Source: Saccostrea cucullata
Lineage: Eukaryota
Length of the DNA stretch: 64,000 bases
Assembly (NCBI RefSeq): GCF_032062105.1
Contig: NW_026927400.1
Location: 186,001-250,000 of the forward strand
Reading direction: 5' to 3'
Made by a program: the position numbers and the translations under genes. How positions within the stretch are numbered: position 1 is the first letter of the stretch; each line of letters opens with the position of its first letter. Positions 15,478 through 22,570 of the stretch are shown piece by piece. A model generated the notes under the pieces. The model worked only from the letters and a program-made list of their open reading frames with translations. It was not told where the DNA came from and searched no databases.

Positions 15478-16701
15478 TTAAGATAGATAATTATCAGAAG
15501 ATTCAGTTTTGGTTCTCGTCAATTCTGTAACTACTTCCGTTTTAGATTTGCAAAGAAGAAAGAATCGACTGAACGATAAAAAGTATATAAAGGGATTTAT
15601 AGCGTAGTTTGCAAGCATTGCGATTGTTCCTATTTGAAAGAGAATATGTGTTAACCCATCATTTGAATCCAGAACTTTGTACTCTATCAATAGTACTAAT
15701 ATATCGTTAATCAAGAAGGGCAACTGTCCAAAAATGTAGGTTAAGCAAATGAGATATACTTTGATTGTAAGTTCTGCAAAATGGCGTTTTTCAATGGCTC
15801 TCATAGATATTCTCGGGAGTTTTCTCAATTTAAACAATTTGTAGCAATGCAAGTAAAGCAACAAACCAAGAATGATCAAAATCAGCGGCACAGCAATGAA
15901 AGCGAAATAGTACACGACATAAAGGTAATCCGGACAAACTTTTATAAAAGATAAAGTAACTGCGTAAGAAATTGACATTAAGCTCATAACCAAAAGTAAA
16001 ATCAGGGATATTTTAACCGCACGGGAGCTTGTATGAGAAGAATGGTAGTGAAGAGGATTAGTAATCAGAGAGTACCTCTCGTACGCCAAAAGAACTAGGT
16101 TACAACCCGTCCACATGAACGGGGTGTAATGCGCCCAGAAAAACAAAATGCATAGAGGAACGTTGAAATATAAATTGTACATAAGTGGAAATAGCAAGAA
16201 CATACCCAAATAGACAGCGGCACTAGTCAAAAAGTCACTCACGGCCAGCAACAGGATACACATGTATGTTACGTCTTTCTGCTTGCGTCTATATAGTATG
16301 TTGATGAAGGTAGCAGTATTTCCTGTCAAGGAAATCAAAGTCAAAATGGTACATACACGAACTAGCCAACAGGAAGTGAAGTCAGTGATTGAACAGAAGG
16401 TGACAATCACCGGAGTTGTGGAGTTTGAAAAGTCCGGCAGCTGAGATGTTAAGTTTGAAAAGTCCGGCAGCTGAGATGTTAAGTTTGAAAAGTCCGGCAG
16501 CTGAGTTGTTGAATTTGAAAAATCCGGCAGCTGAGTTGTTGAATTTGAAAAATCCGGCAGCTGAGATATGAAGTTTGAAAAGTCCGGCAGCTGAGATGGG
16601 AAGTTTGAAAAGTCCGGCAACTGAGATGTAAAGTTTGAAAAGTCCGGCAACTGAGTTGTGGAGCTTGAAAAGTCTTGCAGCTGGGATGAGGAGTTCTCCA
16701 T
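15478..16701 (-). CDS. Orphan class A (rhodopsin-like) GPCR with N-terminal decapeptide repeats (GPCR-1, 407 aa from MENSSS)
   Basis: Seven hydrophobic segments; GN (TM1), LAVSD (TM2), C3.25 and ERY (TM3), ECL2 Cys, GQLP (TM6), NPFIY (TM7). ATG at 16701 was chosen because both paralogs start at the equivalent M(I)ENS; the ORF track start (16755) is a TTG. Confidence 0.93.
   Translation of the reverse strand: MENSSSQLQDFSSSTTQLPDFSNFTSQLPDFSNFPSQLPDFSNFISQLPDFSNSTTQLPDFSNSTTQLPDFSNLTSQLPDFSNLTSQLPDFSNSTTPVIVTFCSITDFTSCWLVRVCTILTLISLTGNTATFINILYRRKQKDVTYMCILLLAVSDFLTSAAVYLGMFLLFPLMYNLYFNVPLCILFFWAHYTPFMWTGCNLVLLAYERYSLITNPLHYHSSHTSSRAVKISLILLLVMSLMSISYAVTLSFIKVCPDYLYVVYYFAFIAVPLILIILGLLLYLHCYKLFKLRKLPRISMRAIEKRHFAELTIKVYLICLTYIFGQLPFLINDILVLLIEYKVLDSNDGLTHILFQIGTIAMLANYAINPFIYFLSFSRFFLLCKSKTEVVTELTRTKTESSDNYLS
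16414..16683 (-). repeat. Coding minisatellite, 9 x 30 bp (QLPDFSNxTS/T)
   Basis: Nine in-frame units seen in both DNA and translation. Confidence 0.95.
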
Positions 16702-16761
16702 GATGCCCTGTATATAAAGCGTAACGGTTCTCTGTTGCATCAGTGTTACAGGCAATGTTCT

Positions 16762-16842
16762 CTAAAATGGAGGGTACAAATTTAAAAAAAAATGAAAAGA
16801 AACTATCTAACAAATATCAACTCGAAACATGTAGACATGTTT

Positions 16843-16933
<91 letters not shown>

Positions 16934-21546: not shown

Positions 21547-22570
21547 CTAAGACCCACAAAAAGAAGCCAATCGTGCAAATGAAAGGAAGTAGATAAAGGG
21601 ATTGAAAGCATAGTTTGCCAGCATTGTAACTGTTCCAATCTGATAAAGGATATTCATCAATTTCTGATAGGAATCCAGAACTTGATACTCCACTAACACT
21701 ATCACCACATCATTAAGCACAAAGGGCAACTGACCAAAAACGTAAGCAAAGCAAATGAGGTAAACTTTTGTTGTCAGCTCCACAGACCGTTTTCTGTTAA
21801 TCAAATTCAGGGATATTGTTGGCAGTGTTTTCATTTTTCTCAATTTGGAACAATGCAAGTATAGCAACATACCGAATATACTAAAAACTAGAGGTACACC
21901 GATGTACGCAAAATAAGAGGTTACCAGAAGAAAGTCTGGACATACTTTGATAAAGGACAAAACGACAGCATATAAAATGGTAAGAATACTCATGAAAACC
22001 AATATGATGAGCGATTTTTTTAATACCAGGCGGCTTGAGTGAAATGTATGATATTTAAATGGGTCAGAAATAAGTGAATATCTCTCGTATGCCATGACAA
22101 CCAGGTTGCCACTTCTCCACATAAATGGAGTAAACACACCCCAAAAGAACACAACACAAAGGGGAATATTAAAATAGAAACTGTACATTCTAGGGTAAAG
22201 AACAAACATTTTTGTAAACATTACACCACTGGAAATCAAATCGCTTAGAGCCAAGAGAAGGATACACATGTATGTTACATCTTTATACATGCGTCTATAA
22301 AGGATGTTGATAAAAGTTGCCGTAAATCAAATCGCTTAGAGCCAAGAGAAGGATACACATGTATGTTACATCTTTATACATGCGTCTATAAAGGATGTTG
22401 ATAAAAGTTGCCGTATTTCCGGTAAGAGAAATGGACGTCAAGATCGAGCAAACAGGGATTAAGAAACAGGTCCCAAAATCATTGATGGAACACATTGCAA
22501 TATTTGCTGGAGCGGAGCTGTTTGGTAGATGACTGAAAAGTTCTGTTGTTGACGTAGAATTTTCAATCAT
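21547..22570 (-). pseudogene. Class A GPCR paralog (GPCR-2) frameshifted by a 91-bp tandem duplication
   Basis: ORFs 22295-22654 and 21547-22290 are two halves of one 7TM protein (GN, LALSD, ERY, GQLP, NPFIY). Removing one 91-bp copy gives a continuous 933-nt ORF (310 aa) from ATG 22570. Could instead be an assembly artefact. Confidence 0.8.
22233..22414. repeat. Exact 91-bp tandem duplication (22233-22323 = 22324-22414)
   Basis: aaatcaaatcgcttagagcc...aaagttgccgt is repeated with no visible mismatch. Confidence 0.95.

What the first reader, a model, noticed from the sequence alone, without database searches (positions are those of the whole stretch)
16414..16683. GPCR family with a length-variable glycosylated N-terminal stalk encoded by a 30-bp VNTR
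Seen: 9 units in GPCR-1, 7 more degenerate units in GPCR-3 and at most one vestigial unit in GPCR-2; most units carry an N-x-S/T sequon (7 in the GPCR-1 N-terminus, about 9 in GPCR-3). Adjacent identical pairs in GPCR-1 (NSTT x2, NLTS x2) suggest recent slippage or unequal crossover. No signal peptide or dibasic cleavage sites are apparent. Inference: a minisatellite acting as a tunable glycan brush or spacer on an orphan receptor, possibly polymorphic between individuals. I do not recognise this repeat from any described family.
Basis: partly seen in the sequence, partly recalled or inferred. Interest (0 to 1): 0.7.

Follow-up and report, generated by a model that had tools for sequence, protein, structure and literature searches.

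The report
Oyster receptor with repeat-built sugar tail
Three neighbouring oyster genes for smell-type receptors carry a 30-letter DNA unit repeated 7 to 9 times in frame, which makes the outer tail about four times longer than in their short-tailed relatives and likely sugar-coated; it is a real but modest case of a known trick, and nothing here shows that repeat number tunes the receptor.

Summary
GPCR-1 (15478-16701, minus strand) is an intact class A (7tm_1) receptor whose tail holds 9 in-frame 30-bp units. GPCR-3 has 7 units. A fourth paralog 5 kb outside the window has 8 plus a partial one. The three form one clade (100/100) under purifying selection (core dN/dS 0.12-0.20), and the repeat pattern matched nowhere else in the genome. 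All 10 close relatives with a full N-terminus lack the array; five have 26-27-residue tails holding roughly one unit. So one ancestral decapeptide was likely amplified once, and GPCR-2's single unit is ancestral, not vestigial. GPCR-2 is also frameshifted by a 91-bp duplication. Each tail has 7 usable sequons and is predicted disordered. Units show moderate protein-level constraint but none specific to the sequon. Repeat units occur in runs of three organism labels, including one RNA library. One contig implies an array three units shorter in another organism. Variation within the species and any tuning effect are unshown. Best reading: a tolerated, mildly constrained glycosylated spacer on a lineage-specific candidate chemoreceptor, a small 'mucinization' of a class A GPCR.

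The parts
15478..16701 (-). GPCR-1 coding exon, 407 aa, class A 7TM receptor (an in-frame upstream ATG at 16740 is not conserved in the paralogs)
   Evidence: ORF; Pfam 7tm_1 E 1.4e-14; exact 407-aa sequence is in NCBI/UniRef; seven long helices in the model; Foldseek top hits are class A GPCRs
16417..16686 (-).
16760..16800 (-). Pyrimidine tract ending in AG, shared with GPCR-3 and GPCR-4: likely splice acceptor of a 5' UTR intron
   Evidence: sequence and flank alignment; inferred, no spliced read seen
21547..22570 (-). GPCR-2: short-tailed paralog (26 residues before the first Cys, one unit-like stretch), reading frame broken
   Evidence: Pfam 7tm_1 E 4.5e-09 for the C-terminal piece; separate clade with L006
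22233..22414 (.). Exact 91-bp tandem duplication inside GPCR-2 that shifts the frame (pseudogene or assembly error; not tested with reads)
48665..49810 (-). GPCR-3 coding exon, 381 aa, intact
49586..49795 (-). Seven more degenerate 30-bp units in GPCR-3

Best explanation
[quoted passage not shown] The tail most likely works as a passive spacer and glycan coat that helps folding, export or stability, while the ligand would be read by the 7TM core. Selection likely keeps the frame and the general composition; unit number likely drifts by slippage or unequal crossing-over within what the receptor tolerates. The receptors are likely lineage-specific chemoreceptor candidates; the ligand is unknown.
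For: Shown: 7tm_1 match and class A fold. GPCR-1/3/4 form one clade, 100/100. 10 of 10 close relatives with a full N-terminus lack the array: 5 have 26-27 residues before the first Cys, 5 have non-repetitive tails of 63-77. The O. edulis tail MENYTSTVPDLSSLPS resembles the GPCR-1 start plus one unit (by eye). Core dN/dS 0.12-0.20. Of 46 changes on a minimum spanning tree of 24 units, on average 19.9 are synonymous against 12.3-12.9 expected; per-tree p median 0.007-0.017. The coding frame has the highest synonymous share of the six frames (0.41 vs 0.15-0.37). Tails hold 8-11 acidic and 0-3 basic residues, in line with the negative-outside bias of N-out signal anchors (PMC13220792, passages). 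A contig from a presumed RNA run reads from the core into a repeat unit in frame (X7), and an RNA library holds three short contigs on the units (X10). N-terminal glycans are needed for export of at least one class A receptor (PMC7190626, abstract only). Oysters have large tandem lineage-specific class A expansions proposed as chemoreceptors (PMC11886862, abstract, passages and section 11).
Against: No glycosylation, surface expression or ligand data. Two raw poly(A) RNA runs gave 0 reads on the core (about half of each run read; the tool marks this as no test). X7 is only guessed to be RNA and X10 may hold DNA. The unit-level test weakens with conservative choices (p 0.07-0.10 at the lowest observed count, 0.27 at kappa 6), and tree-based counting of repeat changes is approximate. 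The lack of stops in the units is not significant (null 0.12-0.17). Whether this family is among the expansions of PMC11886862 was not checked (supplements not read). Homologs exist in Ostrea and Magallana, so the wider family is not species-specific.
Confidence: 0.68

Rival explanations
1. Tunable dial: unit number is polymorphic and selected, and sets ligand access, surface level or shielding of the receptor.
For: Unit number differs between paralogs (9, 7, 8 plus a partial). One 408-nt contig of organism B has the unique 5' flank and a 90-nt skip, which implies 180 nt instead of 270 nt from ATG to the same point in the array (inferred from table arithmetic). All three tails hold 7 usable sequons. 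Exonic VNTRs tune glycosylation in mucins and aggrecan (PMC12776774, passages).
Against: No length allele within a species was seen (X12: 56 reads laid, no joint listed, low depth). The Asn codon changed 2 times and the +2 Thr 4 times on the unit tree, against 1 each for Gln, Asp and Phe, so no sequon-specific constraint. Lengths are stable in repeat-free relatives (15 of 15 cluster members at 331-333 aa), so the family works without a dial.
Confidence: 0.13
2. Neutral hitch-hiker: the array is a mutational accident in an unconstrained tail, with no benefit; only the frame matters.
For: Class A tails vary freely in this family (26 to 77 residues). An unrelated fish GPR4-like receptor has its own 10-residue tail repeat without sequons (P0126). 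The selection signal on the units is moderate.
Against: Synonymous excess among unit changes; the array is kept in three paralogs about 0.23-0.25 synonymous substitutions per site apart and in runs of three organism labels.
Confidence: 0.14
3. The units are a binding or tethered-ligand element (repeated epitope, lectin or microbe decoy, or protease-released peptides).
For: The Q-L-P-D-F core is the least changed part of the unit (codons 2-8 pN/pS 0.23).
Against: No dibasic sites between units, no predicted fold, and no family match for the repeat: a search with residues 1-110 of GPCR-4 gave 3 weak hits, two leucine-rich-repeat proteins and one hypothetical.
Confidence: 0.04
4. Artefact or non-coding: the array is an assembly error, or lies in untranslated sequence.
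For: Fragmented assembly (23,869 contigs); 0 reads in two RNA runs.
Against: Units differ from each other in a structured way in three genes; independent runs hold them; the conserved ATG lies upstream of the array in all three paralogs.
Confidence: 0.01

Closest known systems
Lineage-specific class A GPCR expansions of bivalves (candidate chemoreceptors; PMC11886862); database names 'olfactory receptor 51V1-like' and '51F2-like' in Saccostrea echinata and Magallana
   Same: 7tm_1 core, tandem cluster with broken copies, recent duplicates at about 92-93% nucleotide identity in the core
   Different: Named relatives have short or non-repetitive tails. The 'olfactory receptor' names look automatic and were not tested as orthology to vertebrate receptors.
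Exonic VNTRs of glycoproteins and 'mucinization' (MUC1, MUC7, ACAN; PMC12776774, passages)
   Same: In-frame tandem unit, rich in Ser/Thr/Pro (30-35% Ser+Thr), outside the cell, glycosylation sites scale with unit number
   Different: Here the sites are mainly N-linked sequons, the array is short (7-9 units), the host is a class A GPCR without a signal peptide, and polymorphism is unshown.
GPR4-like receptor of Micropterus dolomieu (XP_045915031.1, P0126)
   Same: Class A receptor (7tm_1 E 1e-13) with about nine 10-residue tandem units in the N-terminal tail
   Different: Different unit sequence, no sequons in the unit, distant core: an independent origin, showing the architecture recurs.
Adhesion GPCRs with mucin-like Ser/Thr/Pro stalks (recalled, no call)
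   Same: Glycosylated extended region in front of a 7TM core
   Different: Those have a signal peptide, a GAIN domain and a class B2 core; Pfam found only 7tm_1 above cut-off here.

Membership tests
Class A (rhodopsin-like) GPCR | 7tm_1 profile match above the curated cut-off | tested here: met
   54.7, 50.1 and 36.6 bits against cut-off 30.5
Class A (rhodopsin-like) GPCR | Seven-helix fold like solved class A receptors | tested here: met
   Model with seven long helices; listed Foldseek hits are class A receptors, best E 1.3e-07, 15-21% identity
Class A (rhodopsin-like) GPCR | E/DRY and NPxxY motifs (recalled definitions) | tested here: met
   ERY at 208-210 and NPFIY at 369-373; R209, N369, P370 and Y373 nearly invariant in 27 rows
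Class A (rhodopsin-like) GPCR | Ligand-driven G-protein signalling | not testable with these tools
   no assay
Lineage-specific chemoreceptor-like expansion (PMC11886862) | Tandem cluster of recent paralogs without one-to-one orthologs in other genera | tested here: met
   Three intact and at least two broken copies within 70 kb; own clade apart from Ostrea and Magallana rows
Lineage-specific chemoreceptor-like expansion (PMC11886862) | Expression in sensory tissue, or variable ligand pocket under positive selection | tested here: inconclusive
   Core is under purifying selection; 0 reads in two RNA runs of unknown tissue
Exonic VNTR | Tandem unit that is a multiple of three and keeps the frame | tested here: met
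   24 of 24 full units are 30 bp without stops
Exonic VNTR | Unit number varies between individuals of a species | tested here: inconclusive
   No second haplotype in G000; X12 too shallow; the one shorter array is from another organism label
Exonic VNTR | Array is in the mature mRNA | tested here: inconclusive
   X7 (RNA guessed) links core and a unit; X10 (RNA library) has unit contigs; DNA carry-over not excluded
Adhesion GPCR | Signal peptide, GAIN/GPS domain, 7tm_2 core (recalled definition) | tested here: not met
   Only 7tm_1 passes in Pfam; no hydrophobic leader in the repeat tail
Mucin-type stalk | Dense O-glycosylation of a Pro/Thr/Ser domain | not testable with these tools
   Ser+Thr 30-35% of the tail; glycan type needs experiment

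The most novel reading that the evidence does not exclude
A class A chemoreceptor caught in the act of 'mucinization': each 30-bp unit adds one N-glycan site, unit number segregates in rock oysters as a selected dial on ligand access or surface level, and the array stops near 9 units because a tail of about 110 residues is close to what a receptor without a signal peptide can push across the ER membrane.
Probability: 0.12. Interest if true: 0.62.

Novelty: new variant of a known kind. Interest (0 to 1): 0.33.

Why it matters
It is a clean, datable example of a receptor tail built from a coding minisatellite, with short-tailed relatives next door as natural controls. If unit number proved polymorphic and functional it would show a simple way to tune an invertebrate chemoreceptor without touching its pocket, and would test how long a tail can get without a signal peptide. 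As it stands it is a lineage-specific oddity on an orphan receptor.

Tried and rejected
Search for shorter relatives: 335 candidates, none at E 0.001. Search with the repeat region alone: 3 weak hits among the 7,996 candidates scored, none a receptor. In the search of 50%-identity representatives, hits confined to the tail were unrelated repeat proteins (aggrecan-like, laminin G, decapeptide repeat and others; 16 plus 5 of the 150 listed were scanned): rejected as compositional matches. Raw RNA runs X13 and X14 gave 0 reads, which the tool marks as no test. Contig depth over the array in X5 (up to 342) was not used as copy number, because short contigs overlap and depths are summed. The joint 16428-16544 in X5 was not counted as a shorter allele: its net 108 nt fits a GPCR-3-type junction laid on another unit (inferred). 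The joint 16381-16432 in X1 and X5 is unexplained. An upstream exon supplying a signal peptide was rejected: the frame upstream of the conserved ATG is open in GPCR-1 only, with a stop in GPCR-3 and a 1-nt gap in GPCR-4. Absence of stops in the units is not significant. Earlier findings of the scan: nothing returned. Seven paper searches listed no title or abstract describing this repeat; most listed papers were not opened, and the supplements of PMC11886862, which may list these genes, were not read.

Full report
Setting. The window is G000:C9537:186001-250000 in a 1.17-Gb assembly of 23,869 contigs. The closest named proteins come from oysters: Saccostrea echinata (P0001, 65% identity), Ostrea edulis and Magallana. 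P0008, named Saccostrea cuccullata by its source, looks the same as the ORF in G000 locus L007 (compared by eye). So this is a rock oyster.

The observation. Three ORFs of 150 aa or more lie in the window, all on the minus strand and all matching 7tm_1 above cut-off. GPCR-1 has nine 30-bp units at 16417-16686 and GPCR-3 has seven at 49586-49795, all in frame. Each repeat tail has 7 sequons once N-x-T-P is set aside; 19 of 24 full units have N-x-T in the same place. The 407-aa form starting at 16701 is the one in NCBI/UniRef. It is also the start shared by the paralogs: the frame upstream is closed in GPCR-3 and shifted in GPCR-4. A pyrimidine tract with AG just upstream is shared by the three genes and is likely the acceptor of a 5' UTR intron (inferred).

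The cluster. A genome search found a fourth intact paralog 5 kb past the window end (GPCR-4, C9537:255153-256388, 8 units plus a partial one), a broken GPCR-2-like copy at 263 kb and a fragment at 270 kb. Long duplicated blocks of 78-90% identity link these regions. GPCR-2 has a 26-residue tail and an exact 91-bp duplication that shifts its frame. The unit pattern gave 14 matches in the genome, all in GPCR-1, -3 and -4, and 0 for the control. TRF on 18 of the first 20 loci (L005 and L006 left out) found a 30-bp array only in these three.

Origin. In a tree of 19 core sequences GPCR-1, -3 and -4 form one clade (100/100, stem 0.33); deeper forks are open. Ten relatives in the wider clade have a full N-terminus and none has the array: P0001, P0002, P0012, L004 and GPCR-2 have 26-27 residues before the first Cys; five further rows (P0003, P0004, P0005, P0041, P0044) have 63-77 non-repetitive residues. 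P0006, P0007 and L006 lack the N-terminus and were not counted. The Ostrea tail resembles the GPCR-1 start plus one unit (by eye). The simplest reading is one amplification on the stem of the clade, so the single unit in GPCR-2 is ancestral. Units are about as close between GPCR-1 and GPCR-4 (4.1 nt) as within GPCR-1 (4.2 nt), so the array is older than the gene duplications or is exchanged between copies.

Selection. The 278-codon core has dS 0.23-0.25 and dN/dS 0.12-0.20 between paralogs. On minimum spanning trees of the 24 units there are 46 changes, 19.9 synonymous on average (17-22.5 over 200 trees) against 12.3-12.9 expected with a transition bias taken from local non-coding duplicates or from the units. 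Per-tree p has median 0.007-0.017 and maximum 0.04-0.06. With the lowest observed count p is 0.07-0.10, and 0.27 at kappa 6. So the peptide is moderately constrained. The sequon is not singled out: Asn changed twice and the +2 Thr four times, against once each for Gln, Asp and Phe.

Structure. AlphaFold2 on a 27-row alignment gives pLDDT under 50 for residues 1-100 and seven long helices from residue 112. Foldseek hits are class A receptors at 15-21% identity, with no single subfamily standing out. The tails are acidic (8-11 Asp/Glu, 0-3 Lys/Arg) and 95-111 residues long before helix 1, with no hydrophobic leader. PMC13220792 (passages) states that large GPCR ectodomains are typically preceded by a cleavable signal, that tails under about 50 residues use an Oxa1-type insertase and those over 100 the Sec61 channel. 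These tails sit at the long end for a receptor without a signal, which might cap the array (inference).

Reads. 23 runs were listed, 11 holding part of the stretch, none half of it; 8 were laid. Raw poly(A) runs X13 and X14 gave 0 reads on the core. X7 (RNA guessed, organism A) has a 542-nt contig whose 76 loose letters continue into a unit with a GPCR-4-type junction, in frame (22 of its 36 listed differences match GPCR-4 and 17 match GPCR-3). X10 (RNA library, organism A) has contigs of 60, 93 and 60 nt on the units at depth like the core; DNA carry-over is not excluded. DNA runs X1 (A), X5 (B) and X12 (C) all cover the array. In X5 a 408-nt contig begins in the unique 5' flank, follows the reference for 216 nt, and has only 157 nt left; a joint at the same depth skips 90 nt. 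That gives 180 nt from ATG to a point 270 nt away in GPCR-1, three units fewer. This links table rows by their shared depth and is an inference. X12 (22 of 56 reads at 99% or more) shows no joint but is too shallow to test alleles.

What it is like. The core belongs to the tandem, lineage-specific class A expansions of oysters that PMC11886862 proposes as chemoreceptors (abstract, passages, section 11; supplements not read). The tail works like an exonic glycoprotein repeat of the mucin kind (PMC12776774, passages) but with N-linked sites. N-terminal glycans are needed for export of the alpha-1D receptor (PMC7190626, abstract). The architecture recurs: a GPR4-like receptor of smallmouth bass has an unrelated 10-residue tail repeat. 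No protein search found this unit on another receptor, though GPCR-1 itself is filed in a cluster with an unrelated 55-aa representative, so close orthologs could be hidden the same way. Seven paper searches listed nothing on this repeat.

Verdict. Shown: the array, its frame, its confinement to one clade, purifying selection on the core, presence in other organisms. Inferred: single origin, glycosylation, disorder, inclusion in mRNA, a spacer or export role, chemoreception. Not shown: variation between individuals, or any effect of unit number. A real, previously unlisted variant of a known theme; interest 0.33.

Noticed in passing
window 22233-22414: Exact 91-bp tandem duplication frameshifts GPCR-2; a very recent pseudogenisation or an assembly error.
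   Followed up: partly
G000:C9537:263017-263481 (L006) and 269768-269989: A broken GPCR-2-like copy and a further receptor fragment next to GPCR-4; the cluster grew by duplicating blocks that hold both receptor types.
   Followed up: partly
window 16844-16929 and 49922-49992: An (AG)n microsatellite lies just upstream of the likely splice acceptor in both GPCR-1 and GPCR-3, with different lengths.
   Followed up: no
window 16381-16432 (runs X1, X5): A joint skipping 50 nt between the last unit and the core appears in contigs of two organisms; it may be a diverged junction or a deleted copy. Unexplained.
   Followed up: partly
P0009: The 407-aa GPCR-1 protein is clustered in the collection with unrelated 44-55-aa bacterial reductase fragments, so it is invisible to representative-based searches.
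   Followed up: no
window 42867-43417 and 44284-44721; 42860-43100 and 44600-44720 region: Two arrays of an 83-bp unit in opposite orientation about 900 bp apart (TRF), possibly the arms of a foldback-type element; a similar inverted arrangement appears at contig 228.9-230.7 kb in the self-BLAST, which is the same place.
   Followed up: no
window 16390-16510 and alignment A1: A Cys pair just before helix 1 (CxxxxxxxC) and a very short second outer loop with one Cys are conserved in the close family; they may form a small lid over the pocket.
   Followed up: no
P0126 (XP_045915031.1): A fish GPR4-like receptor with its own 10-residue N-terminal tandem repeat, an independent case of the same architecture.
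   Followed up: partly
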